Positions 19,256 to 63,928 of a stretch of 64,000 nt of DNA are shown one piece after another. Under the pieces are notes generated by a model. The model searched no databases, was not told the origin of the DNA, and was given only the letters and a program-made list of their open reading frames with translations. Origin of the DNA: a phage. Every line of letters starts with the position of its first letter. The first letter of the stretch is position 1. The position numbers and the translations under genes were made by a program. The DNA lies in the sequence record OZ336096.1. One strand, 5' to 3'.

Positions 19256-20428
19256 ATGGCAGTAGGTGAAATTCAAATTAGTGCCTTGCCTCAAGCAGCC
19301 TTACCAATTGAACTTAGTGATATCTTCCATCTTAAGCAGGGTATTGAGGATAAGAGATGTACTCTTGAGCAATTACTTGCTCCACACTCAAGCCTAAGAA
19401 ATAACCCTCATGGTGTTACTAAAACACAAATTGGTTTAGATAATGTTATTAACGCTCTTCAGTTAGTTGCTGCAAATAACTTATCAGATATTGTTAATGT
19501 AGCTGAGGCAAGAGCAAATCTACAGATTATGTCTTCAGAAGAGGTTAATAACCTTGTTCAACAGCATATTAATGATAAGAGTAACCCACACAATACAACT
19601 AAGGCACAGGTAGGGTTGAGTAATGTTCAGAACTGGACAACGTCGAACCTTTATAACGAAGATGCAGATAAGTATGCTACAGCAAGAGCAGTAAATAACT
19701 TGTACAAGGCTGTTCAGGCTTCTTATCCAGTAGGTACTATCCATCTCTCTATGAATCCTGCAAACCCTTCTACATATTTAATTTGTGGAGGAACTTGGGA
19801 GTTAGTTTCAAAGGGTAGAGCGTTGGTTGGTTATGACTCTGATACAAGACCAGCAGGTTCTGTATTTGGTGCTTCAACTGTCACTTTGTCAGTTAATAAT
19901 ATGCCTCAACACTCTCACTCTGTATCTCTTAGTGGTGGTGGTCATACCCATAATGCAACTGTGTCAATTTCAGCTTTTGACTATGGAACTAAGACTACCA
20001 ACTCTTTTGACTATGGAACAAAGGATACTAATACAACGGGTAACCATACGCACAACGTATCAGGTAACACAAGTACAAATGGTACTCACAACCACGATGT
20101 GTACCCTAGAGAAAATGATGGTACTGGTAATGCTGTAGCTGACTCCGATGGTGGTGGTGCAAGAAGAACATCAAGGACATCTAGTGATGGTGCACACTCA
20201 CATAGCTTTAATGTTACATCTGGTGCATCCGGTGACCACAGCCACACAGTCGGTATTGGTGCTCACAGCCACACAGTTGGTATTGGTTCACATACACACA
20301 GTGGTACTGTGACAGTTTCTTCTTCTGAGCATACACATAGTGGTAATACGAATAGTGTTGGTGGAGGTCAGGCAGTTAATATTGAACAGCCATCCTTTGT
20401 ACTGTATGTATGGCAGAGAACAGCTTAA
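19256..20428 (+). CDS. tail fibre protein with His-rich HxH tip
   Basis: 390-aa ORF; C-terminal region rich in HSHS/HTHN/GAHSHTVGIGAHSHTV repeats like T4 gp37/gp12-type metal-binding fibre tips; followed by terminator. Confidence 0.7.
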   Translation: MAVGEIQISALPQAALPIELSDIFHLKQGIEDKRCTLEQLLAPHSSLRNNPHGVTKTQIGLDNVINALQLVAANNLSDIVNVAEARANLQIMSSEEVNNLVQQHINDKSNPHNTTKAQVGLSNVQNWTTSNLYNEDADKYATARAVNNLYKAVQASYPVGTIHLSMNPANPSTYLICGGTWELVSKGRALVGYDSDTRPAGSVFGASTVTLSVNNMPQHSHSVSLSGGGHTHNATVSISAFDYGTKTTNSFDYGTKDTNTTGNHTHNVSGNTSTNGTHNHDVYPRENDGTGNAVADSDGGGARRTSRTSSDGAHSHSFNVTSGASGDHSHTVGIGAHSHTVGIGSHTHSGTVTVSSSEHTHSGNTNSVGGGQAVNIEQPSFVLYVWQRTA

Positions 20429-20437
20429 TTTCTTTAC

Positions 20438-20460
20438 AGGGGCTTGAAAGCCCCTTTTTA
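20438..20460 (+). terminator. rho-independent terminator after first tail-fibre gene
   Basis: Perfect 8-bp stem AGGGGCTT/AAGCCCCT followed by TTTTT. Confidence 0.8.
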
Positions 20461-20474
20461 GAGGAAAATTTATA

Positions 20475-22829
20475 ATGGCAGATTACAAGTTGAGTGAATT
20501 AAACTCAATCGACACAATCCGTTCAGATGACCTTCTTCATGTCAGAGTTAAAAAGAGACCTGAAATGCTGGGTGATGAAGACCGTCGAATGACCTATCAA
20601 GATTTCTTAGCATCTTTTAAACTTGAAAGATTTGTTCAGATTGCTGGTAGTACTATGACAGGTGACTTAGGGATTGTTAAGTTACTTTATGGTGGTAAGG
20701 TAGTATTTAACCCGACAGGCTCTTCTGAGATTAATATTGGGGATGTTTTAAAGACTTTTAAAATTAACGCAAATGGTCTTAAACTAACTATTGCAGATGC
20801 TTCAAGGTCGGCAACTGTTTATCATACTCTTAATAAACCAAGCCCTAATGAACTTGGGATGCGAACTAATGAAGAGAATGATGCAAGATACTCAAGATTA
20901 GCTGTAAATAACACATTTAGAGGTACTCAAGCTATTCTCTCTGACAATGAAGCTCTTATTGCTAAGAATATTACACAAGGAATGCCACTGTATATTCGTG
21001 GTCAAGATGCAGATGGTACTAATAGGTGGTATCTAGGTAATGATAATAGAGGAACAGACAACCTTGTTTTAAAAAACGTTAAATCTGGTGCATACGTAGC
21101 GATTTTAGCTAACCTAATCTCTGTGAACAAATCAATCCAAATCACTGGTCAAGTTAAACCTTCTGACTTCTCTAACTTAGATGCTAGATACTTTACTCAG
21201 ACAGCAGCTAATCAGAGATTTGCTCAGTTAACTGGTAATAACACATTTAGTGGCTCTAACACTTTCACTAATTTTGTTATTAAGAAGAATGCTAATGCTA
21301 TTACTATTCAAAATGTAGATACAACTACGGCTTTGTATATCCAAGCAAGAAAGTCAGATGGAACTAATAAATGGTACATTGGTAATGATGGTCGTGAAGA
21401 CATTGTAAACATCTATAACTATTTAGCAAAAACACAAATCTCACTAGGCGACACCATTACTATGAGTAGAACAGTCCAAATTGGTGGTCAAGTTCAACCT
21501 TCTGATTGGGCTAATATTGACTCTAGATATATTCCAGCAGCTACTTTGAATAATCTTCCTAAACTTAATGTGGCAAATACTTTTACAAATGTGCAGACTA
21601 TTGTATCTAACAATGAAGGTCTAGTATTGAGGAACTTAACACAGGGGCTTCCACAATATATCCGTGGTGTTGATACTGCGAATGTATCTAGGTGGTGGGT
21701 AGGTGTAGGTGGCGCAAACTCTAATGATGTAGCCTTAAACAACAGCTACTCTGGGACTCAAATTACTCTTATGCCTTCAGCGGTTAAGGCTAATAAGAAT
21801 CTAATCATTACTGGTCAAGTTCAACCTTCTGACTTCTCTAACTTAGATGCTAGATACTATACCCAAGCTGCCGCAAACTCAAGATATATGCTTGCAAGCA
21901 TCACTGGTTCGGCTTCTGAAGCAGATGGTGGTGATGGTGTTGCATGGGATGCAAAAACAGGTCTTTATAAGGTTACTAACACCACTGGACAGTCTTCTTC
22001 ACTTGTATATCACATGTTTTTAGGGGCTAGTTCTACACCATCTGCACAATTAAAGTTTTCGTTTAAAAATGGTGGGATGTGGTATAGAACATCAAGAGAT
22101 GCCTATGGCTTCGAAGTTAATTGGTCTAAAGTTTACACGGAAGCACAAAAACCAACCCCTTCAGAGATTGGTGCATACACTAAAGCTGAAACTGACCAGA
22201 AAATTGCAACAGCAATTAGTGACTCTACAGACCTTAACAAAATCTATCCAGTTGGTATTGTAACGTGGTTTAACAGTAATGTTGACCCTAATACAGCACT
22301 TCCTGGGTTGACTTGGACGTACCTGAACAATGGTGTTGGCAGAACTATCAGAATCGCAGCAGCAAACGGTTCAGATGTTGCTACAACTGGTGGTTCAGAT
22401 TCTGTGACGTTAGCTGTTGGTAACTTACCGTCACACACCCATAGTTTCTCTGCTACCACTTCATCTTTTGATTATGGTACGAAGAACACTAATAGCACTG
22501 GTGCGCACACCCACTCAGTTAGTGGTACTGCTGCATCTGCTGGACAACACGCGCACAAGATTTCACAGGGTGATAACGCTAACGTTCCATCAGGTAGAGT
22601 CGCGTCTTCAAACTCTAGACAGACCCATGTTGGTTGGACTGAAAATGATGGTGCACACACTCACTCAGTTAGTGGTACTGCTGCATCTGCTGGTGCTCAC
22701 ACTCACTCTGTAGGTATTGGTGCTCACAGCCACACAGTTAGTGGTAACACTGGTGGTACAGGTTCTGGTTCAGCATTTAGTGTTACTAACCAGTTCTACA
22801 AGTTAATGGCTTGGGTAAGAACTGCTTAA
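20475..22829 (+). CDS. long tail fibre protein
   Basis: 784-aa ORF with three internal ~110-aa repeats (ITGQV(K/Q)PSDFSNLDARY...) and the same C-terminal HxH region and ...W(V/Q)RTA ending as the upstream fibre gene. Confidence 0.75.
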   Translation: MADYKLSELNSIDTIRSDDLLHVRVKKRPEMLGDEDRRMTYQDFLASFKLERFVQIAGSTMTGDLGIVKLLYGGKVVFNPTGSSEINIGDVLKTFKINANGLKLTIADASRSATVYHTLNKPSPNELGMRTNEENDARYSRLAVNNTFRGTQAILSDNEALIAKNITQGMPLYIRGQDADGTNRWYLGNDNRGTDNLVLKNVKSGAYVAILANLISVNKSIQITGQVKPSDFSNLDARYFTQTAANQRFAQLTGNNTFSGSNTFTNFVIKKNANAITIQNVDTTTALYIQARKSDGTNKWYIGNDGREDIVNIYNYLAKTQISLGDTITMSRTVQIGGQVQPSDWANIDSRYIPAATLNNLPKLNVANTFTNVQTIVSNNEGLVLRNLTQGLPQYIRGVDTANVSRWWVGVGGANSNDVALNNSYSGTQITLMPSAVKANKNLIITGQVQPSDFSNLDARYYTQAAANSRYMLASITGSASEADGGDGVAWDAKTGLYKVTNTTGQSSSLVYHMFLGASSTPSAQLKFSFKNGGMWYRTSRDAYGFEVNWSKVYTEAQKPTPSEIGAYTKAETDQKIATAISDSTDLNKIYPVGIVTWFNSNVDPNTALPGLTWTYLNNGVGRTIRIAAANGSDVATTGGSDSVTLAVGNLPSHTHSFSATTSSFDYGTKNTNSTGAHTHSVSGTAASAGQHAHKISQGDNANVPSGRVASSNSRQTHVGWTENDGAHTHSVSGTAASAGAHTHSVGIGAHSHTVSGNTGGTGSGSAFSVTNQFYKLMAWVRTA
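21141..21200 (+). repeat. intragenic direct repeat in long tail-fibre gene (unit 1)
   Basis: ACTGGTCAAGTTAAACCTTCTGACTTCTCTAACTTAGATGCTAGATAC recurs near-identically at ~21810; coordinates approximate. Confidence 0.7.
21807..21866 (+). repeat. intragenic direct repeat in long tail-fibre gene (unit 2)
   Basis: Near-identical to 21141-21200; a more diverged third unit lies near 21481. Confidence 0.7.
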
Positions 22830-22865: not shown

Positions 22866-22907
22866 TCTTTAGGGTATTCTCACCATCTTGGCTGATGAGG
22901 TGATTAA

Positions 22908-23102
22908 ATGCCTACAATCCTAGCAATTCTTCTAAAAAATCTAGGTAGCTTCTTCTGGAAACTCATTTTATCCCTTCTAAGTGAATACATGATTGAGAAA
23001 GTGTTCTTTAGGCTTGCAAGATACCTTGCGAGTAAGACAGACACACCTATTGATGATGAGTTCGTAGATAACTTAGAAAAAGCTTTTAAGGGGGAGAAAT
23101 AA
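22908..23102 (+). CDS. small hydrophobic protein
   Basis: 64-aa ORF with hydrophobic N-terminus; preceded by TTGACT-17-TAATAT promoter-like element. Confidence 0.35.
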   Translation: MPTILAILLKNLGSFFWKLILSLLSEYMIEKVFFRLARYLASKTDTPIDDEFVDNLEKAFKGEK

Positions 23103-23474
23103 ATGAAGTGGCTAGAGGAGGCTTTTAAAAATAATATTGGTGCAATTGTAGTTGGTATTTTTAGTGTTATTGGGATGTATACCACCATGCAAGTCTCGGA
23201 TGGTAAGCAAGAAGTGTCTATCACAACAAAGTTACAGCAGTTAGATAATTATTCCAAAAGTAATTATTCAGCTATTCGTGATTTACAGTCTGATATGAGG
23301 CTGCTTCAGCTAGGGATGGAGAACCAGAAAGTTCAGTTAGAGAATGTTAAGGGAGAGAACGCAAAACTTACTAAGACTCTTGATAAATTCTCTGATAGTG
23401 TGAACAATCTGGCTCAATCAGTATCAGCCCTCCAAGCTATTACTGAAAAGAACACAAAGAATACTGAAAAGTAA
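23103..23474 (+). CDS. membrane-anchored coiled-coil protein
   Basis: 123-aa ORF with N-terminal hydrophobic helix (IGAIVVGIFSVIGMY) and Q/L/N-rich coiled coil; followed by terminator. Confidence 0.4.
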   Translation: MKWLEEAFKNNIGAIVVGIFSVIGMYTTMQVSDGKQEVSITTKLQQLDNYSKSNYSAIRDLQSDMRLLQLGMENQKVQLENVKGENAKLTKTLDKFSDSVNNLAQSVSALQAITEKNTKNTEK

Positions 23475-23479
23475 AGTTT

Positions 23480-23512
23480 AAGGCTCCTTTTTACGGGAGC
23501 CTTTTTGTTTTA
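23480..23512. terminator. bidirectional rho-independent terminator between convergent blocks
   Basis: AAGGCTCC-loop-GGAGCCTT followed by T-run on + strand, A/T-rich on the other side; lies between + gene ending 23474 and thyA ending 23510. Confidence 0.8.
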
Positions 23513-24409
23513 TTTACCTACTGACAAAGGTGCTTCAATCTTTCCTGCATGTTGGTAATTGTTAATACCACCAATAAAGTCACTTGCAGTGAGATGTTTT
23601 AAGTCACTTAAAGTGTTAAGTGGGATACCAATCTCAAAAGTTGGTGCATGGAACTCTTCATTGTTCATCAGTTCATAAACCTGCTTCATATGATTATGAT
23701 AAATCTGAGTATCTCCAAAGACACCTATCAAGTACCGTGGAGTGTATCCAGTCATCTTACAAAGAACTTCCAGAATAAAACCATAAGATGCAATATTAAA
23801 CGGAAGTCCTAAAAAGGTGTCTACTGAACGCTGATACCATTGTAAGTCAACTTCACCCTCGTTAGTAATATAAATCTGAAACAGAACATGACAAGGTGCT
23901 AGAGCCATTGAGTTTGCTGCAATATCTGCTGCATTCCAAGCATTAACAAGCATGTAACGGTCTGTGATATCACCCTTCATCTTCGTTACTAAGGTTTCTA
24001 ACTGGTCTACAACACAACCATTATGACCTTCAAAGTTTCTCCACTGAACTCCGTAGATTCTTCCACCTGCATCCTCTAACCAATCTTGTTCAGAAGAATA
24101 ATTAGAGCTTAACCAGCGTTTAAAATCATCTGACCAGATAGTCCAGCGGTCTCCGTCATTTTCACCCCAAGTACGGTAACGAAGTTCACCCAGTTTATTC
24201 TCACCATTCAGGAACCATAAAGCTTCCCCGATAACTTGCCGTGTAAACACCTGTTTAGATGTTAAGAGTGGGAAACCAGTTCTCATATCAAAACGAAACT
24301 GTGGTGGAGCAAATGCAGAGATAACATCTCCAGTTCGTGTAGTACGCAGTTCACCAACGGATAAAACATGGTTCAGGATATTTTTGTAACTTGAATCTGC
24401 TTGTGACAT
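23510..24409 (-). CDS. thyA: thymidylate synthase
   Basis: 299-aa translation matches ThyA hallmarks (RTGTG-like RTTRTGD, FPLLTSK, EALWFLNGE); intact, no intron. Confidence 0.9.
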   Translation of the reverse strand: MSQADSSYKNILNHVLSVGELRTTRTGDVISAFAPPQFRFDMRTGFPLLTSKQVFTRQVIGEALWFLNGENKLGELRYRTWGENDGDRWTIWSDDFKRWLSSNYSSEQDWLEDAGGRIYGVQWRNFEGHNGCVVDQLETLVTKMKGDITDRYMLVNAWNAADIAANSMALAPCHVLFQIYITNEGEVDLQWYQRSVDTFLGLPFNIASYGFILEVLCKMTGYTPRYLIGVFGDTQIYHNHMKQVYELMNNEEFHAPTFEIGIPLNTLSDLKHLTASDFIGGINNYQHAGKIEAPLSVGK

Positions 24410-24410
24410 A

Positions 24411-24956
24411 TCAAAAGTGTCCTTTTACTTGTGGAACATAAATTTCAAAGGTTGCTTTACCATCATCTGAGGGTCTTGACTGCACCTTTGCAAATACACG
24501 GCTATCATACAACTTATCGAAGAAGTTTTCAAAAGGTAAATGCACAGTGGCCTCTTCAGTTACTTTATGGAAGACTGTGTGGAACACTACATCAGCATAC
24601 GGTAAAGCATTTACAAGGACACCTACACCACCAATTACAAAGACATCTTCATCAATAGAGCTATCAAGATACTTCAAAAATGCTCCAAAGGATTCTTTAC
24701 TGGCCTTAGCATACATTACATCATCTTTGTCAAAGTCTATACCTAAATATGGTACAGAGTTTGTTAAGACGAGGTTTGTACGTTCTGGTAAAGGTTTACT
24801 ACCCAGAGTCTTAAAAGTTTCATTACCCATGACTACTAAGTTGTCTTTAGTGAGTCTCTTAAACTCTTGCATATCCTGTTTATGTCGAGGCCACGGCATA
24901 CCAGTTGGAGTACCAAACTCCCCATTTTCACCACTTGCAAAGATTAATTTAATCAT
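24411..24956 (-). CDS. folA: dihydrofolate reductase
   Basis: 181-aa translation with DHFR pattern (MIKLIFA...GMPWP...VVMGNETFKTLG...PLPERTNLVLT); adjacent to thyA. Confidence 0.85.
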   Translation of the reverse strand: MIKLIFASGENGEFGTPTGMPWPRHKQDMQEFKRLTKDNLVVMGNETFKTLGSKPLPERTNLVLTNSVPYLGIDFDKDDVMYAKASKESFGAFLKYLDSSIDEDVFVIGGVGVLVNALPYADVVFHTVFHKVTEEATVHLPFENFFDKLYDSRVFAKVQSRPSDDGKATFEIYVPQVKGHF

Positions 24957-25213
24957 TTTGTAAATCCTTTCTTAATGAACCAGTTGATAACATTCTTCAC
25001 AGCTTTATTGCTATGGTAGATTAAGTGTGGTGTAGGTTGGTATGCACCATAAGCCCAGAAAGCAATGATTTCATTACACCCTGTACACCTTGTGCTCTCT
25101 TCAGCGATATGACCGTTGACTATTTCACTTACCTCACCTTGTAAGTCTGTACACCCACAATGTGGACATCGGATAGGTGTTCCATCAGACTCATAGCAGT
25201 GTTCAATTTTCAT
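24953..25213 (-). CDS. zinc-ribbon protein
   Basis: 86-aa ORF with CPHCGC ... CTGCN cysteine pairs. Confidence 0.5.
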   Translation of the reverse strand: MKIEHCYESDGTPIRCPHCGCTDLQGEVSEIVNGHIAEESTRCTGCNEIIAFWAYGAYQPTPHLIYHSNKAVKNVINWFIKKGFTK

Positions 25214-25735
25214 TTATTTAACCTCAAAAACTGGCTCAAGAACCAATATAAAGTCTACACAGTCATCTTCTTCATCCAGAATACCATCAAAGTTCTTAGG
25301 AACGAAGTCGAAGAGGCTCATAACAAAACAGTCAGAAGTGACCCTGATAGTCCCTCCAATATTCTCTACAGTTAACACTGTACGACTTTCTTTTACCTCC
25401 CTCAGAAGATTATCCACAAAGTCATCTAAGAAGTACTTCATCAGTGACTTAAAACCTTTAGGGTAATCTGTACCAGAGTATGTTTCAATCTGAGGCACAA
25501 GCTTAACATTTATACTAGTCTTTGTTAAGAACGTGTTAGAGAACATACTATCAGGTAACTTACAAACAGTCTTTCCAGTACCTTCATGTTCAATCTCAAC
25601 AAAACCAGCTTCGTCACCACATGTAGCTATTTTAAAAGATGCCTCATTCTCATACTGTGAAGCCATAAACTTTTTAAGCATTTCTTTAAGGAAATCTGCA
25701 TGAGCATCTTGTAAGTAGATATCAATCATAATCAA
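25214..25735 (-). CDS. hypothetical protein
   Basis: 173-aa ORF in leftward early block. Confidence 0.45.
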   Translation of the reverse strand: MIMIDIYLQDAHADFLKEMLKKFMASQYENEASFKIATCGDEAGFVEIEHEGTGKTVCKLPDSMFSNTFLTKTSINVKLVPQIETYSGTDYPKGFKSLMKYFLDDFVDNLLREVKESRTVLTVENIGGTIRVTSDCFVMSLFDFVPKNFDGILDEEDDCVDFILVLEPVFEVK

Positions 25736-25742
25736 TCACCTA

Positions 25743-26102
25743 TTATGGGAACAAGCACTTAATGTCATCGTTTTTGAAAACGAAGCTTGTGTAGTTATGA
25801 CCGTCAACATCCAGCCAAACAGCCTGAACATCTACACCATCAAGGTTGTGGTAAAGCTCTTTGATGAAGTGGTCTTTCACAATCTGACTGCTAGTAGTTT
25901 CCAGCTTAATGTTCGAGATTGCTGAACCTACAGCCATGTAGCCCATGACACGTTTCTTCTCAGTATGCTTAATCTTTCCATCTTTGTAAGCCATAATGAG
26001 ATTGGAAAGAATTTTTACACCATAATACTTTTCAAGGTGAGTAGGTACACCATAAAAGCCTAATGCGAAGTTTTCAGAGTGGATAATGTTTTCACGTTTC
26101 AT
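25743..26102 (-). CDS. hypothetical protein
   Basis: 119-aa ORF. Confidence 0.45.
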   Translation of the reverse strand: MKRENIIHSENFALGFYGVPTHLEKYYGVKILSNLIMAYKDGKIKHTEKKRVMGYMAVGSAISNIKLETTSSQIVKDHFIKELYHNLDGVDVQAVWLDVDGHNYTSFVFKNDDIKCLFP

Positions 26103-26103
26103 G

Positions 26104-26433
26104 TTAATCTGCCAACCTTAAATTGAAATTAACACCAAATTTTTCACATACTTCCAACATATACTCAAGGGAGACGTTACCAGTGAGATGGATTATGTTG
26201 GATACACGAGCCTGAGAGATACCACAAATTTTAGCGACTTGCTCTTGAGAAAGACCTCTGGATTTAATCTCTCTCTTAAAACGATGTGCAACGAAATCTC
26301 TCATTTCGTCTACATCCATTGGACAGATGTAATTTTCCATTTCAGCCTCTCTATCAGCCTCCCAATCATCTTGTGGAGCATAAGGGTCAAAAACCTCATT
26401 CATCTTTCTTCTTCCGTTTGCGTGAAGCATCAA
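26104..26433 (-). CDS. HTH (XRE-family-like) DNA-binding protein
   Basis: Contains LSQEQVAKICGISQARVSNI helix-turn-helix signature; real start may be the internal ATG near 26403. Confidence 0.55.
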   Translation of the reverse strand: MMLHANGRRKMNEVFDPYAPQDDWEADREAEMENYICPMDVDEMRDFVAHRFKREIKSRGLSQEQVAKICGISQARVSNIIHLTGNVSLEYMLEVCEKFGVNFNLRLAD

Positions 26434-26608
26434 TCAATGAATCTATGTTTGTAGCTCTAACCTTTTCACGTTCATCGTTAAGATAATCATCAAGAGCCTT
26501 TTCAATCTGTGAATCATCTTGACAGATAACTGTAAAGACTGTAAAGCCGTCTGTATCGTCAATTATCTTACCATAACCGCTTCTGGGATGTAACTTTTTA
26601 AGAGCCAT
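26396..26608 (-). CDS. hypothetical protein
   Basis: 70-aa ORF with basic C-terminus (RKRKKKDE). Confidence 0.4.
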   Translation of the reverse strand: MALKKLHPRSGYGKIIDDTDGFTVFTVICQDDSQIEKALDDYLNDEREKVRATNIDSLIDASRKRKKKDE

Positions 26609-26609
26609 A

Positions 26610-26993
26610 TTAGATACCTGTACAGCTTCTGTTTTCTAAGAAATACTCAACACCATACATAGCTTTTTGCATCAAATCTTCTTTAAACTGGATACGATGA
26701 TTGAGCATAGCCTGTACATCAATATCATCATGGTGTTTCTCTTTAATATTTGCAGATTGCAGGAAATACTCTGCAAGAACACGATATTGATAGTCAGTAA
26801 CCTTATCAGTCATCTCTGTTAAAGACTCTTCAGAGATTGGTTTAAGTAACTCACCATTAGCCAGAGCAACACCTTTTACAATCTGGCAAGTGTCTTCTGG
26901 AACACCTGATAAGTCCACATTTGGAAGTTCTGTTGCATTGACTGGTAAATTCATTGCCATAACCATTGCAGCAGCTAATAAAATCTTTTTCAT
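26610..26993 (-). CDS. secreted protein (signal peptide)
   Basis: 127-aa ORF starting MKKILLAAAMVMAMNLPVNA, a typical Sec signal peptide. Confidence 0.5.
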   Translation of the reverse strand: MKKILLAAAMVMAMNLPVNATELPNVDLSGVPEDTCQIVKGVALANGELLKPISEESLTEMTDKVTDYQYRVLAEYFLQSANIKEKHHDDIDVQAMLNHRIQFKEDLMQKAMYGVEYFLENRSCTGI

Positions 26994-27037
26994 AATGACC
27001 TCAAAGTTATATTAAATTTTGTATTACATTGAGTATA

Positions 27038-27084
27038 AAAATAAGCTATAACACCTGACTTGTCAACAGATTTTATAGCTTATT
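27038..27084. promoter_or_regulatory. 13-bp perfect inverted repeat flanking a TTGACA-containing 21-bp loop
   Basis: AAATAAGCTATAA ... TTATAGCTTATTT; on the - strand the hairpin is followed by a T-rich tract (possible ligase terminator) and encloses a -35-like TTGACA. Confidence 0.4.
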
Positions 27085-27426
27085 TGGCAGATTTTTTATA
27101 AGGCTACTGCCATCCTTCCATACCAGACTACACCATGCCAGACCAGACTTCACATCACCCTACCGTGCAATACATTACTTAAAAAACCTCTTAGAAAGAC
27201 TCTTAAGTGATGCTGGTGAGTACCCGTTGGTTTATGCTGCTCAGTATACTCACCAAATTTTCTATGTCAACAACTTTTATATAAAAGTCCTGATAGCTAT
27301 ATGTGTTACAAAACAGAAGATTGTGAACAAAACACCCATTGCAAAAGATGTGTCCAAAAGCTTACTTGCAATGTATGACAATACAAAGACAACCAGTATA
27401 AACAGAATGACTGTACTGAACATAGT

Positions 27427-28527
27427 TTACTCATAATCCCTAATAACTAGCCCTACAGGAAACTGTAAAGAACCCTTACGAGTCATCTTCTGGAACTGAA
27501 CAGTTAAAGGTTTCCCGATAAACTCTTCAGGATGCTCAGCAAGATACTGTTTCTTCTCATGAGTAGTCTTCCATGATACATCTACAAAGACGTTAGGAAG
27601 AGTCTCTACAACGAACTTGCCATGACCACGCTTATCAGTCTTTACACCAGTCACTTTAAACTCTTCAGTGTGCATCTTCTTGTGCTTAATCAAGAAGTAT
27701 GAACGGTGACAGCACTCATAGAAGGAGTCTTCAGAGATTGAACGGTACATTGCACCTTCAAACTGAGCTTCAACCCACTTATCATGGGCTTCATCAAACT
27801 CTTCCCAAGAATTTACACGGATAGTCTGTACAGGAACCACTCTACAGGTATCCCCAAGCTCAACAATAGGTGAACTATCAATAACTTCACGACGCTCAGG
27901 CCAAGATTTTGAATTGTCACAGATATCATACCAGTAGAATTTAAGAAGGTGACGGTCTGGATTGTCAGCATTCTTAATCATAGACACAATATCTTCTAAG
28001 TCCTGCCCATGAGCATAAATCTCACCATCAAAGTCTTCAACTTGTGGATGTAATTTAAGCAACAAAAGCAAATCTGGAATTAGTTCTGCTGGAACGTTGT
28101 AAACAGTATTCTCACGAGAATAAGCTGTGAAACTAACTGTATCAGCATCTCTTGAAATTCTACAACGTACACCATCAAGTTTTGGTTGAGCATCAGCAGG
28201 GAACTTCAAATACTTTGCATGGCTAACCTTTGCAGCATCATGAGCAAGCTGTACACCTACCTTCTCAGTATTCTGTGCAGACTCTTTTGTATAAGCATAA
28301 CCTTTACGGTCAACTTGCTTTTTATACTTAGCAGCAACTTCAAAGAGAGCTTGCTGTTCAGCGTTACGCTCATTCTTTTTACCGATGTTTTTAGGTTCTG
28401 CTGTATACTCTTCAAACATCATCTTGCCATTTTCTTTACCGTAGGTTGTAATAACTTTGTCACCTACAGCAACACATGACCAAACGTTAAAAGAGCCATC
28501 TTTATTTTGTTTGTACAGTATTGTCAT
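27427..28527 (-). CDS. ATP-dependent DNA ligase
   Basis: 366-aa ORF containing the ligase adenylation motif KLDG (PKLDGVRC). Confidence 0.85.
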   Translation of the reverse strand: MTILYKQNKDGSFNVWSCVAVGDKVITTYGKENGKMMFEEYTAEPKNIGKKNERNAEQQALFEVAAKYKKQVDRKGYAYTKESAQNTEKVGVQLAHDAAKVSHAKYLKFPADAQPKLDGVRCRISRDADTVSFTAYSRENTVYNVPAELIPDLLLLLKLHPQVEDFDGEIYAHGQDLEDIVSMIKNADNPDRHLLKFYWYDICDNSKSWPERREVIDSSPIVELGDTCRVVPVQTIRVNSWEEFDEAHDKWVEAQFEGAMYRSISEDSFYECCHRSYFLIKHKKMHTEEFKVTGVKTDKRGHGKFVVETLPNVFVDVSWKTTHEKKQYLAEHPEEFIGKPLTVQFQKMTRKGSLQFPVGLVIRDYE

Positions 28528-28730
28528 TTTCTCTTACCACCAATTTCTACGTCAATAACTTGAACATCACCAGCAACATCAAACTTATGAATGATGCTTT
28601 CCACAGTGTAAGTCCAACCATCAATGCGAACAAGCTCACCTTCTCGTGGGACTATTGGATTACGTTGAGCTACCGTTGTAGTAGAGTGAACAACATCATA
28701 ACGGTAGATATAGTTTACTAGGACTTCCAT
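28524..28730 (-). CDS. hypothetical protein
   Basis: Listed ORF 28524..28829 overlaps the lipoprotein gene; internal ATG at 28730 gives a 68-aa non-overlapping product. Confidence 0.3.
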   Translation of the reverse strand: MEVLVNYIYRYDVVHSTTTVAQRNPIVPREGELVRIDGWTYTVESIIHKFDVAGDVQVIDVEIGGKRK

Positions 28731-28740
28731 CGTGAAAACC

Positions 28741-28998
28741 TCACTCAATAACCGTAGTATGTGATTGACCATTTTTGCCGTAGCTATAAGATGTTGTTGT
28801 TTGAGAGTTTGGACATCTGACAACAACAATATCCCTACTTATAGCGTCACCATTGAGTTTGTAGATTTTGCAGTCTTGCATCTCTGGAGGGAGGCTATAA
28901 GAGGTATCTTTGTTTTCATAAGATGGGTTACAGCCAGCCAGAAAAATTACTCCAAGTGCAACCATTGCTTTCACACAACTCTTAACCTTATTGTTCAC
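28741..28998 (-). CDS. lipoprotein
   Basis: 85-aa ORF with signal peptide and lipobox (VIFLAGC). Confidence 0.55.
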   Translation of the reverse strand: MNNKVKSCVKAMVALGVIFLAGCNPSYENKDTSYSLPPEMQDCKIYKLNGDAISRDIVVVRCPNSQTTTSYSYGKNGQSHTTVIE

Positions 28999-29130
28999 GA
29001 TAGTCTACCTCTCTGTATGTTTTTAAATAGTGAGTGATGAGTTCTGGTAATTCACTACGTTTAACGTTTGAACGAAGAAGTGTCCAGTCAAAACCTTTAC
29101 CAACCCTTCCCCAGAGACTGTACATTTTCT

Positions 29131-29349
29131 TCATAGCAACTCCAGAATATCAATACGTTCACCCTTAAGGACTCCGGTGCGGTCTCTTGCAATCTTACCG
29201 TCAACGATAAGGATATGCGCGACCTTTAAAGCCTCACGATTAAAACCTTTTAAGAACTTACTAGGCATCACCACAATAAGCATCTCTTGAATCAACTCTG
29301 GAGTATAGCAGTTGTCGTGAAGTTGCTGAATAACGTCTGCAAGTGTCAT
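29131..29349 (-). CDS. hypothetical protein
   Basis: 72-aa ORF. Confidence 0.4.
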   Translation of the reverse strand: MTLADVIQQLHDNCYTPELIQEMLIVVMPSKFLKGFNREALKVAHILIVDGKIARDRTGVLKGERIDILELL

Positions 29350-29400
29350 ATAACCTCCTATATAAGATACAGTATAAGGTACTCTTCCCTGAGCACCTTG

Positions 29401-29934
29401 TCAACTTAGTTTTGCAAACTCTCCGTGGAGTTTAATAGCAGCTTCACAGTAAGCTTTATGGGCTTCTTCAGGGGTGTCATGGTGACCTAAAAACATCTTC
29501 TTACCTTTATAACTTATCTGTGCGACCCACTTACCAGACTTCTTCTTAAGACTTACACCCTTGTACCCAGATTTATTGGTGACTGGTTTACCTTTATTCC
29601 AAGCACTTTGAAAATCATCTGCTTCCCTTAAGTTTACAATCCTGTTGTCAAGCGAGTCTCCGTTGATATGGTCAATGATACCTTTTGGCATCTTGCCATA
29701 CACGTAAAGCCATGCGAGTCTGTGTGCTTTATGTGCTTTCTTGTCAAAATAGATACTAATCTGTTTATGACCACTTGAATCAGTCTGGATATTACCTGCC
29801 ACCTTTCCTGCATAATTACTGTTAAAAACACTAACAGCTCTTGATTTACCTTCTCTACGAAGCCAAGTAAAGACCCCTGTTTCGGGGTCATAGTGCAGCA
29901 GCTCCTTTAAACGTTTTTGTAAAATTAAGTCCAT
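29401..29934 (-). CDS. HNH-AP2 homing endonuclease (free-standing)
   Basis: HNH motif (IDHINGDSLDNRIVNLR) followed by AP2-type DNA-binding domain (YKGVS...KWVAQISYKGKKMFLGHHDTPEEAHKAY); sits immediately 3' of DNA polymerase exon 2. Confidence 0.8.
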   Translation of the reverse strand: MDLILQKRLKELLHYDPETGVFTWLRREGKSRAVSVFNSNYAGKVAGNIQTDSSGHKQISIYFDKKAHKAHRLAWLYVYGKMPKGIIDHINGDSLDNRIVNLREADDFQSAWNKGKPVTNKSGYKGVSLKKKSGKWVAQISYKGKKMFLGHHDTPEEAHKAYCEAAIKLHGEFAKLS

Positions 29935-29937
29935 TAA

Positions 29938-30494
29938 TCAATGTACCTCATACCAGCTCTTACCAACCTTTGCTGTACCAGTTACAAGTGTTTCTTTCCT
30001 CAAACCTAAGTTTTTTGAAGCTTGTCCATACATCCAGTCAGCAATTGCTTTCATATCCTGTGTCATACCCTCTGGACATTCCCAACTATTTTCATCGTGA
30101 TATGCCAGAAGTAACCTTGCTCCGATAGCTGGTTTTCGAGCATTCAGTTTTGTCAGGCCATCTTCACAGGCTTTTCTTGCTGCTAGGTTGATGGCCTCAT
30201 TCTGAATCTGTGCTTCCGAACTCATCAGGAGGTAGTTCAGTAGTTTATGTGGAGATTTGCACCATATCCATGCTCCAGCGACCCTGATATAACCACCTTT
30301 AGCAATTGAAGAATTCTTCCCAAAAACCTCTTCCAGAGCCTTTTTAGACGCCTTAAAATCGGCTTCTAAGCTATCAAGTAACTTCTTAATCTTTGGCAGA
30401 CGCATATAGTAAGTTTGTTTAGTCAATGCACCTTCTTCCGTAGATGATGCTTTGATAGTTTTTGCAAACTTCTCGTCACCTGCACCGAACAATA
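29938..30494 (-). CDS. DNA polymerase (family A, T7-like), exon 2
   Basis: Begins inside motif B (..LFGAGDEKFAK, cf. T7 FLYGAGDEKIG), contains HDE motif C and T7-like C-terminus (KSWYEVH); listed ORF starts with TTG, consistent with an exon rather than an independent gene. Confidence 0.8.
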
Positions 30495-30762
30495 CATCTG
30501 GTCAATACACTCGCAAGGTGTACCAGTTCTCTTATGAACTTCTCCGCATTTCTACGGAGTGTCGGACTATATCACGTAGTAGTAATACTACCGTTGCACT
30601 TGGGAATGGTCATTAGCTTACCACCCTACTCTACTCAGTTCATACATTAAGTATGCTTTTCGATAGTCTCTGAACGTTCCTCTTAAGAGGCTTCGCTGCT
30701 GATTACCATATCTTTTAAGACTTAGGCTTCCAGCAATTCACAACGTTTTACATGCGCCACTG
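30495..30762 (-). ncRNA. group I self-splicing intron (ORF-less) in DNA polymerase gene
   Basis: Conserved group I elements read on the sense strand in order P (AATTGCTGGAA; + coords 30728-30738), Q (AATCAGCAG; 30696-30704), R (GTTCAGAGACTATCG; 30661-30675), S (GATATAGTCC; 30564-30573); proposed boundaries put U at the 5' exon end, G at the intron end, and restore motif B as IYALLFGAGDEK; exact splice sites are inferred. Confidence 0.7.
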
Positions 30763-32935
30763 ACGCATAGATGCCATTTTTGCTCTTCTTACGACCTTTT
30801 GTAATCTCGTGAAGAAGTTCCTCATCCTGTGTCTCCCTACAACGAACAATATCTTCTTCCTTGTTCAGACCAAAGTAAATACTGTTCAGTGTATGCGCAT
30901 CAGTCCCTGTGTAGACTTCATAGAGGTCGTTCTCAGCATCATAACGAAGATACTTGTCAGTTTCTGGATTAAGATACTTATCGAGATGCTTGCAATAGTA
31001 TCTTCCATCCTCTTGCTTAGTGAACTCTACTGACTCTTTACCCTCAGTTACTGCTTTAGTGAAGTCTTCATCACCCATAAAGTTACAAAGAAGAACTAGC
31101 TGGGCTGAGTTCTGGTCAACGGAAACGATGTTAGTCCCCTCCTCACAAATCCACACCTCCCTCATAGGTGCTCCATAGACAGCAGCACCAGACGGTACGT
31201 TTACAATACCATATTGCGTCATACGTCCAGTTGAAGTACCAAACACCATTGCACCAGCACTAAGGCGACCATCTGGACGAATCTGGTTCAACCAACCTTT
31301 TTCATCATCCTTTGAGTTCTCAATAGTCCTGCGTCGGTGCATCAAAGTATAGTACTTAGCAATCTTCTGTCCAAGCTCACCTTCAATCGTATCATAAGAT
31401 GATTCAGTAAGTTTTGGTGAAGTACGGATTAAGCAAGGCTCAAGCAAATCTGTGTACTTCTTCACAGACCAGTTATGTTCAATGTACTGGACACCTTCAT
31501 GTTCAACATAACTCAAGCCGCACCGTTCAACCATCTCCTGCCACTTAGGATGCTTTGTAATCATCTTTTTGTTGTCTTTGAAACGACAAACTTTGACAGG
31601 GCGACCATCTGAATCTTTCTTGTAGTTCCAGTCATCTGGAATCCAGCCAACTGATTTCAAGTAGTCTTTAACAACTGCTACTTGAGTCATACGAGAAACT
31701 TCAAACTCAATTGGTGTATATGGTGCATCAATCAATCCTGTGTAGCGACTTGACTCCAGTCCAAAGTGGTTAACAACATGACTGTTATAGTACTTCACAG
31801 TTTTAACTGTTTTTACTGGCTTCCAGTCTTTGCATTTCTTACCAATCTTTGCGTTCAACTCATTGCAAATTGCACGAGCATCCTTCATTGCTACAAAACC
31901 CTCCTTGTACTCTTCACCAGTTACAGAGTTGGTTGGCGTATAGCAATTTCTCTTTTCAATGTTAAAAATCTTTGTAGTTGGCTTACCAAATGGTTTGATT
32001 TCGTATGTCTGCATCTCACCGTTACGTACCTGCTGACGATACTTTGTCTTAGGGTACTTGGTAATCCTCTTCAGTCCATCTGCATGACCAAATGTTTCAA
32101 CATACTCATTCCAAGCTTTTGCAAACTCTTCTCCAGTGACTTTACCTTTGGTCTTAATAGTTGGAGGAAGATGTGGTTCAACCTCTGAAGCAAGCTCATT
32201 AGTCAACTTGTCAAGTTCCTTTACATGGAACTCCATAAGTTCTTTATCAGCTTTCCAACCATTGATAGCTTGTTGACTCATCCAGAAAGATGTTTCTTTA
32301 GCTCGCATGTAGGTTTCATAAGTGTCTATGCCACACTTCTTAAGCTTGAGATACTCATTATCAAGTGCCCGTTTAGTTTTGGCGTTAATACGGATATCTT
32401 CTACAACACGAGTGAAGATTTCTGCATTCCACACACCCCAATGTTCAATCTCTGGTTTACGAACACCAACACGAGCACCCCATGCAGCCAAACCATGAGC
32501 ACCTTTATAACCCTTTGGAGTTGGTCTATCCATCCACTGAACACGAGACTGGATAAGAGAATCCTGAAAGAAGTTACTCCACGGTTTACACTTTGGATTA
32601 TCAAAGTTCCATAAATCAGGTGCAATGTGGTTGAAAACCCACCAGTCATAACCGAGACCATTATGGATGCAAAGACGTTTTGCCTTTAACGCAAACTCAA
32701 CACCTTCACGCAAACCACCCTTAATGTACTTGGTATACTTGTGACCGAGGATAGGCTCGTCTGTAAAGACCCATACAGGTGGCTCTTCATCGTCAGATTT
32801 ATAGTCTGCAAAGGCCATTACGTGAACTTTAGTGAACTCAAGGAGTAAACCATCAGTTTCTGTATCACCAACCAAATGTAAGTTTTTAAAATCTACGTTT
32901 TCCATTTTTACTCCCTCTAAAATCATTAACCACAT
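30763..32935 (-). CDS. DNA polymerase (family A, T7-like), exon 1
   Basis: 3'-5' exonuclease Exo I motif DTETDG near N-terminus; ends in first half of motif B (RKKSKNGIYA); probable true start at the ATG for MENVDFK (~32905); the listed ORF's last 13 codons are read-through into the intron. Confidence 0.85.
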
Positions 32936-63417: not shown

Positions 63418-63765
63418 ATGACATTTAAAGAGTTCTGCCAAGCTACTTTCATAATTGTTTTCTTAGTTGGAGCAGGTGTCTGGGGAGGATACTCTTACAG
63501 AGACTACCAAGTTGCTGAAGCTGAGCTAAATAATGAGAAACTAATAAGTGTTGCTAAAGATGCTTATCAGGAAGGTTTAGCCACACTCAGCACCAATTAC
63601 AAAAATGATTTGAAAGACGTGCTTGCTAAGAATAAGCACACAAAAGAGGTACTAACATATGAAAAGACTAAGCCAGAGTTTTATAATGTTTGTGTTACTG
63701 ATAATTATGTCAGGGTGTTCAACGAACAAAGTGAACAGTACATTCAAAAACTCCCAAGTAAGTGA
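63418..63765 (+). CDS. i-spanin-like protein (Rz-like)
   Basis: N-terminal transmembrane helix (ATFIIVFLVGAGVWGG) followed by charged helical periplasmic-type domain; contains an embedded out-of-frame lipoprotein ORF. Confidence 0.5.
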   Translation: MTFKEFCQATFIIVFLVGAGVWGGYSYRDYQVAEAELNNEKLISVAKDAYQEGLATLSTNYKNDLKDVLAKNKHTKEVLTYEKTKPEFYNVCVTDNYVRVFNEQSEQYIQKLPSK

Positions 63766-63928
63766 GAGTGACAAGTACACTCAAGAAGAGTCAAGATTCA
63801 CTGTCAAAGGTAATACTGGTAGTGATGTGGCAGCAGCCCTTGAGTTTTATCGTGATGGTTTTTACCAGTGCACAATCAAAGCTAATAACCTTATTGACAT
63901 GATTTTATTAGGGAACAAACAGCAATGA
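63659..63928 (+). CDS. o-spanin-like lipoprotein (Rz1-like), embedded/overlapping
   Basis: Starts inside the Rz-like gene in another frame; signal peptide with lipobox (LLIIMSGC). Confidence 0.5.
   Translation: MKRLSQSFIMFVLLIIMSGCSTNKVNSTFKNSQVSESDKYTQEESRFTVKGNTGSDVAAALEFYRDGFYQCTIKANNLIDMILLGNKQQ

What the first reader, a model, noticed from the sequence alone, without database searches (positions are those of the whole stretch)
28741..28998. Phage-encoded lipoprotein in the early leftward block
An 85-aa protein with a clear lipobox (LAGC) sits among early genes, far from the lysis genes at 61.6-63.9 kb. Small phage lipoproteins in early regions are classically superinfection-exclusion factors that mask the receptor (for example T5 Llp); this is a candidate of that kind.
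Basis: inference. Interest (0 to 1): 0.45.

Follow-up and report, generated by a model that had tools for sequence, protein, structure and literature searches.

The report
Conserved small phage lipoprotein, function unknown
The ORF is a real gene for a small membrane-anchored lipoprotein from a large family found almost only in virulent phages; nobody knows its function, and it does not look like the receptor-masking lipoproteins of phage T5 or T1.

Summary
Observation confirmed. Window 28741..28998 (-) encodes an 85-aa lipoprotein precursor with a GTG start, a Lys-rich n-region, a hydrophobic core and lipobox LAGC (Cys23, Asn at +2).

The window is a Felix O1-like myovirus (Felixounavirus). 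The gene lies in the leftward DNA polymerase-to-ligase block.

It belongs to PHROG 902 and Pfam DUF4884. The family has 654 clusters at 50% identity. Members are 75-110 aa with a lipobox Cys, two further invariant Cys at fixed spacing and a VVRCPNSxTTT..GK core. They occur in Felixouna-, Moogle-, T4-like, jumbo, Vibrio, Acinetobacter and T1-like phages. The family is almost absent from bacterial genomes and plasmids.

AlphaFold2 gives a five-stranded beta-meander (pLDDT 79) with no specific fold match.

The Llp/Cor-type receptor-masking reading fails every test I could run:
- No homology once signal peptides are removed.
- The gene is not next to the tail-fibre genes.
- It does not co-vary with the tail fibres.
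- A T1-like phage carries both a Cor gene and a DUF4884 gene.

The related, syntenic phage SUSP1 lacks the gene, so it is accessory.

Best guess (inferred): a periplasm-facing lipoprotein that binds a conserved envelope component. It may give receptor-independent exclusion or envelope protection. The function is untested.

The parts
28741..28998 (-). CDS of the lipoprotein precursor: 85 aa, GTG start, TGA stop at 28741..28743. Member of PHROG 902 / DUF4884.
28933..28998 (-). Signal peptide, residues 1-22. The n-region is MNNKVKSCVK and the h-region is AMVALGVIF. Predicted to be cleaved by signal peptidase II before Cys23.
   Evidence: Read from the sequence. Found by the pattern scan. The signal peptide varies between relatives while the mature part is conserved.
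28930..28941 (-). Lipobox L-A-G-C, residues 20-23. Cys23 is the predicted lipidated first residue of the mature protein. Residue +2 is Asn.
   Evidence: The Cys is invariant across the family alignments. Lipobox consensus L[TASV][GA]C across the 244 of 251 family members that match the three-Cys core pattern.
28744..28932 (-). Mature domain of 63 aa. It is predicted to form a five-stranded antiparallel beta-meander. It contains the family core LPPEMQDC...VVRCPNSQTTTSYSYGK.
   Evidence: AlphaFold2 with 117 sequences gave pLDDT 79.2. Invariant and near-invariant columns are listed.
28870..28872 (-). Cys43 (mature Cys21). Invariant. Predicted disulfide partner of Cys62.
   Evidence: Invariant in alignments A2, A3 and A4. 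Spacing from the lipobox Cys is 18-20 residues in 194 of 244 members. The disulfide is inferred.
28813..28815 (-). Cys62 (mature Cys40), inside the invariant VVRCPNS motif.
   Evidence: Cys43-Cys62 spacing is 16-18 residues in 223 of 244 members.
29008..29013 (-). Shine-Dalgarno-like AGAGG/GAGG, 9 nt upstream of the GTG start. It lies inside the 3' end of the upstream 48-aa ORF (28988..29134), which overlaps the start by 11 nt.
   Evidence: Read. ORF table.

Best explanation
The ORF is a genuine accessory gene of a Felix O1-like virulent phage. It encodes a small lipoprotein of the DUF4884 / PHROG 902 family.

Proposed pathway, inferred from the sequence and from the standard E. coli lipoprotein route:
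- The gene is transcribed with the DNA polymerase-to-ligase block.
- The precursor is exported by Sec.
- Cys23 is lipidated and the signal peptide is cut by signal peptidase II.
- Cys43 and Cys62 form a disulfide in the periplasm that staples a 63-aa beta-sheet domain.

Proposed function, inferred and not shown: the domain docks onto an envelope component that is conserved across Gammaproteobacteria, rather than onto this phage's own receptor. This alters the envelope of the infected cell. The most likely outcome is a receptor-independent block to later-arriving phages, or protection from damage from outside, until lysis. It acts as a single stand-alone protein.
For: Real gene with a lipoprotein signal.

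Family size and shape:
- 654 clusters at 50% identity have E<=1e-3, and 102 have E<=1e-10.
- 244 of 251 collected members have the three-Cys architecture. Spacing between the lipobox Cys and the next Cys is 18-20 in 194 of the 244. Spacing between the two core Cys is 16-18 in 223 of the 244.
- The lipobox Cys, Cys43 and Cys62 are invariant. P, D, VVR, PNS and GK are nearly invariant.
- Invariant paired Cys in an exported protein argue for a periplasmic disulfide.

Fold: a compact beta-meander at pLDDT 79.

Almost only in virulent phages:
- 588 phage records match, from Felixouna/Mooglevirus, Vibrio, Aeromonas (Straboviridae), Serratia BF and 121Q-type jumbo phages, Acinetobacter and Pantoea.
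- Longer metagenome and assembly contigs show phage-type gene context.
- One locus was found in 185,579 species genomes using the core motif.
- Two weak hits were found in 72,556 plasmids.
- No hit was found in 5,426 complete E. coli genomes.

Strong purifying selection on the mature part: mean identity 89%, against 91% for ligase, 88% for thymidylate synthase, 61-71% for tail fibre and 66-73% for the neighbouring small ORFs.

Independence from the receptor-binding proteins. Coexistence with Cor in Henu8.

Accessory status: SUSP1, a syntenic member of the same subfamily, lacks the gene entirely.

No conserved neighbour gene in distant phages, which fits a stand-alone protein.
Against: - No experiment bears on the function, and no paper in the searchable library assigns one.
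- The fold search gave only generic beta-sheet matches, so no target can be named.
- About 12% of family members have Asp at +2. Under the E. coli sorting rule they would stay in the inner membrane. That fits poorly with a target that must be reached from the outer membrane.
- Expression timing is inferred from gene order only. The promoter scan was no better than shuffled sequence.
- The disulfide and the lipidation are predicted, not shown.
- The co-variation test used only 9 genomes.
Confidence: 0.4

Rival explanations
1. Llp/Cor/Rtp45-type superinfection exclusion. The lipoprotein binds the periplasmic face of this phage's own outer-membrane receptor and changes its surface loops so that virions can no longer adsorb.
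For: It has the same general build as Llp, Cor and Rtp45. All are lipoproteins of about 60 aa when mature, with a short tether and an internal Cys pair, made by virulent phages (PMC9586334; PMC12685063). The tightly fixed tether length would suit docking at a membrane-proximal site.
Against: - No homology without the signal peptide.
- Not adjacent to the tail-fibre genes at 19256..22829. It is on the opposite strand and in a replication gene block.
- No co-variation with tail fibres.
- The family core is 35-50% identical across phages of Enterobacteria, Vibrio, Aeromonas and Acinetobacter.
- Henu8 has a separate Cor gene as well.
- From my own knowledge, Felix O1-type phages use the LPS core, which a periplasmic protein cannot mask directly.
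Confidence: 0.12
2. Periplasmic inhibitor of a cell-wall hydrolase, working like T4 Spackle. It would block the tail lysozyme of incoming phages or a host lytic transglycosylase. This would prevent lysis from without or premature lysis. It is a specific version of the receptor-independent reading.
For: A conserved enzyme target would explain the strong conservation across hosts and the independence from tail fibres. Most carriers are large contractile-tailed or jumbo phages.
Against: - No sequence or fold similarity to Spackle, or to Ivy-, MliC- or PliC-type inhibitors, among the best PDB matches.
- The family is also annotated in T1-like siphoviruses.
- No direct evidence.
Confidence: 0.15
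3. Host-takeover or counter-defence factor in the envelope. It would silence an envelope stress pathway or an envelope-located defence, or alter lipoprotein or LPS traffic to help the infection, with no effect on other phages.
For: It is an accessory gene that a syntenic relative lacks. It is a stand-alone gene among small early-region ORFs in all the contexts examined. Its single bacterial homologue sits in an island-like region.
Against: No match to PADLOC defence models. No named family matches. A counter-defence gene would be expected to vary more between phages than this one does.
Confidence: 0.2
4. A second lysis lipoprotein: a spanin-like or lysis-timing component.
For: A weak match to the Rz-like spanin PHROG 456, E 0.18, over residues 7-48.
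Against: - The phage already has an overlapping Rz/Rz1 pair at 63418..63928.
- There is no partner membrane protein next to this gene.
- The mature part is a folded beta domain with an internal Cys pair.
- The weak match covers mostly the signal peptide.
Confidence: 0.03

Closest known systems
DUF4884 (Pfam PF16225) / PHROG 902, an uncharacterised small-lipoprotein family
   Same: Direct membership. PHROG 902 matches at E 2.8e-18. PF16225 is recorded on every relative returned. Length, lipobox and the three invariant Cys all match.
   Different: Nothing structural differs. No function is known for the family. The local Pfam-A copy returned no hit for this protein or its close relatives, and I cannot explain that.
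T5 Llp and the Cor proteins of T1/phi80 (PHROG 1119), receptor-masking lipoproteins that bind FhuA
   Same: A small lipoprotein with a short tether and an internal Cys pair, made by a virulent phage and facing the periplasm (PMC9586334).
   Different: No detectable homology without the signal peptide. Not encoded next to the receptor-binding protein. No co-variation with the tail fibre. Different Cys topology: the second Cys of Llp is near its C-terminus.
Rtp45 of phage Rtp, a lipoprotein that binds LptDE (PMC12685063)
   Same: A lipoprotein of about 6 kDa that binds at the periplasmic outer-membrane interface. It shows that such proteins can target an essential, conserved outer-membrane machine.
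   Different: hhalign probability is 0.1%. rtp45 lies beside the receptor-binding gene rtp44, unlike this gene.
T4 Spackle (Sp), a periplasmic inhibitor of the gp5 tail lysozyme
   Same: A receptor-independent exclusion factor that acts in the periplasm. This is the kind of mechanism I favour here.
   Different: From my own knowledge, Spackle is not a lipoprotein and is helical. It is not among the best sequence or fold matches here.
Rz1-type o-spanins
   Same: A small outer-membrane lipoprotein encoded by a phage.
   Different: No partner i-spanin. The true Rz/Rz1 pair is at 63418..63928. This protein is a folded beta domain.

Membership tests
DUF4884 (PF16225) / PHROG 902 | Significant match to the family profile. 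| tested here: met
   PHROG 902 E 2.8e-18, residues 2-83. PF16225 is precomputed on all relatives returned, and named DUF4884. Caveat: the local Pfam-A scan gave no hit.
DUF4884 (PF16225) / PHROG 902 | Length 75-110 aa, an N-terminal lipobox, two further invariant Cys at fixed spacing, and a VVRCPNSxTTT..GK core. | tested here: met
   The window protein has Cys23, Cys43, Cys62 and VVRCPNSQTTTSYSYGK.
Llp / Cor superinfection-exclusion lipoproteins (PHROG 1119) | Sequence or profile homology of the mature protein. | tested here: not met
   PHROG 1119 is not matched at E<=1, while Llp matches it at 1.1e-19. Mature-only hhalign probability is 1.3%. The 87% result is a signal-peptide effect.
Llp / Cor / Rtp45 superinfection-exclusion lipoproteins | Gene directly adjacent to the receptor-binding protein gene. 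| tested here: not met
   Tail-fibre genes are at 19256..22829 (+). The lipoprotein is at 28741..28998 (-), inside the polymerase-ligase block. The same position is kept in 8 relatives. rtp45 is adjacent to rtp44.
Llp / Cor / Rtp45 superinfection-exclusion lipoproteins | Sequence tracks receptor specificity, that is, it co-varies with the receptor-binding protein. | tested here: not met
   Spearman rho is 0.08-0.16 inside Felixounavirus. Identical lipoproteins occur with tail-fibre C-termini only 59-78% identical. Only 9 genomes were used, so power is low.
Llp / Cor / Rtp45 superinfection-exclusion lipoproteins | Small lipoprotein with an intramolecular disulfide. | tested here: inconclusive
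   The lipobox and two invariant extra Cys are present. The disulfide and the lipidation are predicted only.
Llp / Cor / Rtp45 superinfection-exclusion lipoproteins | Expression blocks adsorption by binding the phage's outer-membrane protein receptor. | not testable with these tools
   This needs plating, adsorption and binding experiments. From my own knowledge, Felix O1-type phages use the LPS core.
Rtp45 (LptDE-binding lipoprotein) | Sequence homology. | tested here: not met
   Mature-only hhalign probability 0.1%.
o-spanin (Rz1) | Lipoprotein gene embedded in, overlapping or next to an i-spanin gene in the lysis cassette. | tested here: not met
   The neighbours are a 48-aa and a 68-aa soluble ORF. 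The Rz/Rz1 pair is at 63418..63765 and 63659..63928.
Plasmid entry-exclusion lipoproteins (TrbK, EexN) | Match to the NCBIfam models above their cutoffs. | tested here: not met
   The window protein has no hits. Relatives have only sub-threshold hits over the signal peptide. Only 2 weak hits were found in 72,556 plasmids.

The most novel reading that the evidence does not exclude
DUF4884 proteins would be a third class of phage periplasmic lipoprotein effector, and a receptor-independent one. Instead of jamming the phage's own receptor as Llp, Cor and Rtp45 do, they would bind an envelope component conserved across Gammaproteobacteria. Candidates include a part of the lipoprotein, LPS or beta-barrel assembly machinery, the Tol/Ton systems, or a cell-wall hydrolase. 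The result would be a generic block to entry by other phages, or stabilisation of the infected cell. That would explain why unrelated virulent phages keep nearly the same 60-residue domain.
Probability: 0.3. Interest if true: 0.65.

Novelty: new member of a known kind. Interest (0 to 1): 0.38.

Why it matters
This small protein family has no known function, yet hundreds of sequenced virulent phages of Enterobacteria, Vibrio, Aeromonas and Acinetobacter keep it, and it is as conserved as their replication enzymes. A stand-alone, exported 63-residue domain is easy to test.

If it blocks superinfection without touching the receptor, or binds an essential envelope machine, it would matter in three ways:
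- It would add a new way for phages to compete with each other.
- It would bear on phage-cocktail design, because Felix O1-like phages are used in Salmonella and E. coli biocontrol.
- It could point to a new vulnerable site in the Gram-negative envelope.

If it does nothing measurable in the laboratory, it is one more conserved accessory gene of unknown role.

Tried and rejected
- **Named families.** Pfam-A, NCBIfam and PADLOC scans gave no named family. The weak TrbK, EexN and LptM hits on relatives cover only the signal peptide.
- **Solved structures by sequence.** The family profile against PDB sequences gave only a chance 'CPNS' match in a human receptor.
- **First structure model.** The model from 9 sequences was too poor to use, at pLDDT 53.
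- **Llp homology.** The 87% hhalign probability disappeared once signal peptides were removed, so I rejected it. Rtp45 was rejected the same way.
- **Spanin.** Rejected because the real Rz/Rz1 pair is elsewhere.
- **Conserved neighbour gene.** None is shared among distant phages.
- **Gene-fitness data.** I hoped to use the SUSP1 CRISPRi-ART screen (PMC11879866), but SUSP1 has no homologue.
- **Literature.** Searches for DUF4884, PF16225, phrog_902, Felix01p170, phage lipoproteins and Felix O1 transcriptomes found only 'hypothetical protein' listings.
- **Promoter and terminator scan.** No better than shuffled sequence, so it is not used as evidence of timing.
- **Exact-sequence look-up.** The window protein is not in the collection.
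- **Genome scan.** It was rerun with a narrower alignment.

Full report
**The observation**

The ORF at 28741..28998 on the minus strand is present exactly as described. It has 85 codons and a GTG start. A GAGG lies 9 nt upstream, and the start overlaps the end of the upstream 48-aa ORF by 11 nt.

The N-terminus is a standard lipoprotein signal. It has a Lys-rich n-region (MNNKVKSCVK), a hydrophobic core (AMVALGVIF) and lipobox LAGC with Cys23.

The internal Met12 is used as the start in several GenBank records, giving a 74-aa product. That start would leave an 11-residue uncharged leader, which I judge too short to work as a signal. The GTG start is therefore the better choice.

A six-frame pattern scan found only two lipoprotein-signal ORFs in the window and none in 30 shuffles. 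The second is 63659..63928 (+). It overlaps the Rz-like gene at 63418..63765 and matches spanin PHROGs. The phage's o-spanin is thus accounted for elsewhere.

**Where the gene sits**

The window is a Felix O1-like myovirus. A 4-kb query around the gene matches 260 phage records, the best being Escherichia phage L27 at 95.8%, classified as Ounavirinae, Felixounavirus.

Structural genes run rightward from 1 to 22829. A leftward block covers 22904..32935. Relatives annotate thymidylate synthase and dihydrofolate reductase in this block. It also holds:
- ATP-dependent DNA ligase, 27427..28527;
- an HNH-AP2 endonuclease, 29401..29934;
- a split DNA polymerase.

The lipoprotein gene lies between the polymerase/HNH genes and the ligase gene. 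It keeps this position in eight Felixounavirus and Mooglevirus genomes. 'Early' timing is inferred from these neighbours only. The promoter scan did no better than shuffled sequence.

**What family it belongs to**

The protein matches PHROG 902, function unknown, at E 2.8e-18. Every relative returned from the large protein collection carries a precomputed hit to PF16225, which names DUF4884. The local Pfam-A copy gives no hit. I cannot explain this discrepancy.

A profile search of 1.84 billion representative proteins found 654 clusters with E<=1e-3 and 102 with E<=1e-10. The 150 best listed are 61-137 aa long, mostly 75-110.

Of 251 collected members, 244 share one architecture:
- a lipobox with consensus L[TASV][GA]C;
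- a second Cys 18-20 residues later, in 194 of the 244;
- a third Cys 16-18 residues after that, in 223 of the 244.

The three Cys are invariant in the alignments. The stretch LPxELxDCK...VVRCPNSxTTT.Y..GK is nearly invariant. An invariant Cys pair in an exported protein points to a periplasmic disulfide, but this is inference.

**Who carries it**

tblastn finds the family in 588 phage records:
- Felixounavirus and Mooglevirus of Escherichia, Salmonella, Shigella and Citrobacter;
- 295 Vibrio phages;
- an Aeromonas phage of Straboviridae;
- Serratia phage BF and 121Q-type jumbo coliphages;
- Acinetobacter and Pantoea phages.

A T1-like phage, Henu8, is annotated with a DUF4884 protein.

The longer metagenome and assembly contigs that encode members look like large virulent phages. 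They carry ribonucleotide reductase, Thy1, MazG and a jumbo-phage prohead protease.

The family is nearly absent outside phages:
- A scan of one genome from each of 185,579 bacterial and archaeal species with the core motif confirmed a single locus, in Hylemonella gracilis.
- 72,556 plasmids gave two weak hits.
- 5,426 complete E. coli genomes gave none at the DNA level.

No neighbouring gene is shared between distant carriers. The protein therefore most likely works alone.

**Structure**

With nine sequences the AlphaFold2 model was poor, at pLDDT 53. With 117 sequences, the 63-aa mature part folds as a five-stranded antiparallel beta-meander at pLDDT 79.2 and pTM 0.56.

Fold searches were uninformative:
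- Foldseek against the PDB returns nothing below E 0.4.
- BFVD returns only family members, some labelled 'lipoprotein'.
- No solved structure is related by sequence.

The known receptor-masking lipoproteins share a set of features. They are small lipoproteins with an internal disulfide. They are encoded beside the receptor-binding protein gene. They bind the periplasmic face of the phage's outer-membrane protein receptor: Llp binds FhuA, and Rtp45 binds LptDE (PMC9586334, PMC12685063, PMC11990801).

This protein shares only the general build.

- *Homology.* T5 Llp falls in PHROG 1119, which this protein does not match. A profile comparison with Llp gave 87% probability, but the aligned columns were the signal peptide plus about ten residues. 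With mature parts only, the probability is 1.3% for Llp and 0.1% for Rtp45.
- *Position.* The gene is 5.9 kb from the tail-fibre genes, on the other strand.
- *Co-variation.* Across nine genomes, mean identity of the mature lipoprotein is 89%. This compares with ligase at 91% and thymidylate synthase at 88%. The tail fibre averages 61-71%, and the flanking small ORFs 66-73%. Two pairs of phages have identical lipoproteins but tail-fibre C-termini only 78% and 59% identical. Inside Felixounavirus the rank correlation with the tail fibre is 0.08-0.16. Nine genomes give low power, but there is no sign of tracking.
- *Coexistence with Cor.* Henu8 carries both Cor (ORF45) and DUF4884 (ORF6) at separate loci.
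- *Receptor type.* From my own knowledge, Felix O1-type phages adsorb to the LPS core, which a periplasmic protein cannot cover.

I conclude that the receptor-masking reading is unlikely, though not excluded. I give it a probability of about 0.12.

**Is the gene essential?**

SUSP1 is a syntenic member of the same subfamily, in the genus Suspvirus. It was screened gene by gene with CRISPRi-ART (PMC11879866). It has no homologue anywhere in its genome by tblastn or by a family HMM over all six frames. A different small gene, agp043, occupies the equivalent slot. The lipoprotein is therefore an accessory gene, not part of the core replication or assembly machinery.

**Most likely mechanism**

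Established lipoprotein biogenesis predicts the pathway, although no step has been shown for this protein. [quoted passage not shown] DsbA would then form the Cys43-Cys62 disulfide.

I infer that the domain binds a host envelope component conserved across Gammaproteobacteria. Four observations support this:
- The same core is kept at 35-50% identity in phages of very different hosts and types.
- The gene evolves as slowly as the replication enzymes.
- It ignores tail-fibre change.
- It needs no partner gene.

Given how virulent phages are known to use such proteins, the most probable outcome is receptor-independent exclusion of later phages, or protection of the infected cell envelope. A Spackle-like inhibitor of cell-wall hydrolases is one concrete version. 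An envelope-directed host-takeover or counter-defence role is the main alternative.

One observation fits poorly with a strictly outer-membrane site of action. About 12% of members have Asp at +2. My overall confidence in the mechanism is 0.4.

**Novelty and verdict**

This is a new member of a known but uncharacterised family, already catalogued as DUF4884 and PHROG 902. The Llp analogy holds only at the level of 'small phage lipoprotein'.

The family's size, conservation and restriction to virulent phages make it a reasonable experimental target. Nothing found here is startling. Interest 0.38.

Noticed in passing
window 30542..30774 (-), within 29938..32935: A group I intron (Rfam RF00028, 64.5 bits, E 5.8e-15, full-length model match) interrupts the DNA polymerase gene. 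This explains why the gene appears as two ORFs, 30722..32935 and 29938..30492. Relatives such as wV8, ASO1A and radambza have one uninterrupted 2721-nt polymerase ORF.
   Followed up: partly
window 29401..29934 (-): A free-standing HNH-AP2 homing endonuclease (PF13392 at 9.1e-15, PF00847 at 1.4e-12) sits directly after the intron-containing polymerase gene. This is a possible intron-plus-endonuclease homing arrangement. The endonuclease is present in some relatives and absent in others.
   Followed up: no
window 63418..63765 (+) and 63659..63928 (+): An overlapping i-spanin/o-spanin pair. It holds the only other lipobox ORF in the window.
   Followed up: partly
window 23103..23474 (+): The ORF whose homologues are annotated as holin lies just after the tail-fibre gene. 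It is about 40 kb from the spanins and 5 kb from the lipoprotein. The lysis genes of this phage are therefore scattered.
   Followed up: no
L014 9534..9758, L016 9534..9758, L017 8101..8352: Public records annotate this gene inconsistently. Several start it at the internal Met12, giving 74 aa and losing the charged n-region of the signal peptide. Phage radambza does not annotate it at all.
   Followed up: partly
L011 6004..6282 (Hylemonella gracilis ATCC 19624, NZ_AEGR01000062.1): This is the only bacterial-genome homologue found with the core motif among 185,579 species genomes. It is a 92-aa lipoprotein, 42% identical. It lies in an island-like region with a helix-turn-helix-type regulator-like ORF, another lipoprotein and a large secreted protein.
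   Followed up: partly
L012 31008..31220 (SUSP1 agp043): In the syntenic phage SUSP1 an unrelated 70-aa ORF occupies the slot that holds the 48-aa ORF and the lipoprotein gene in the window. The flanking genes agp042 and agp044 are homologues of the window's neighbours.
   Followed up: partly
window 28741..28998; proteins P0001-P0251: PF16225 (DUF4884) is precomputed as a confident hit on every relative. The local Pfam-A hmmscan finds nothing for the window protein or four close relatives, even at E<=10.
   Followed up: no
family members P0021, P0024, P0033, P0043 and others: 72 of 251 family members carry a C-terminal extension of the form (I/V)(D/E)G..Y, which the window protein lacks. A further 32 carry an extra CGKxC Cys pair. 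These look like subfamilies.
   Followed up: no
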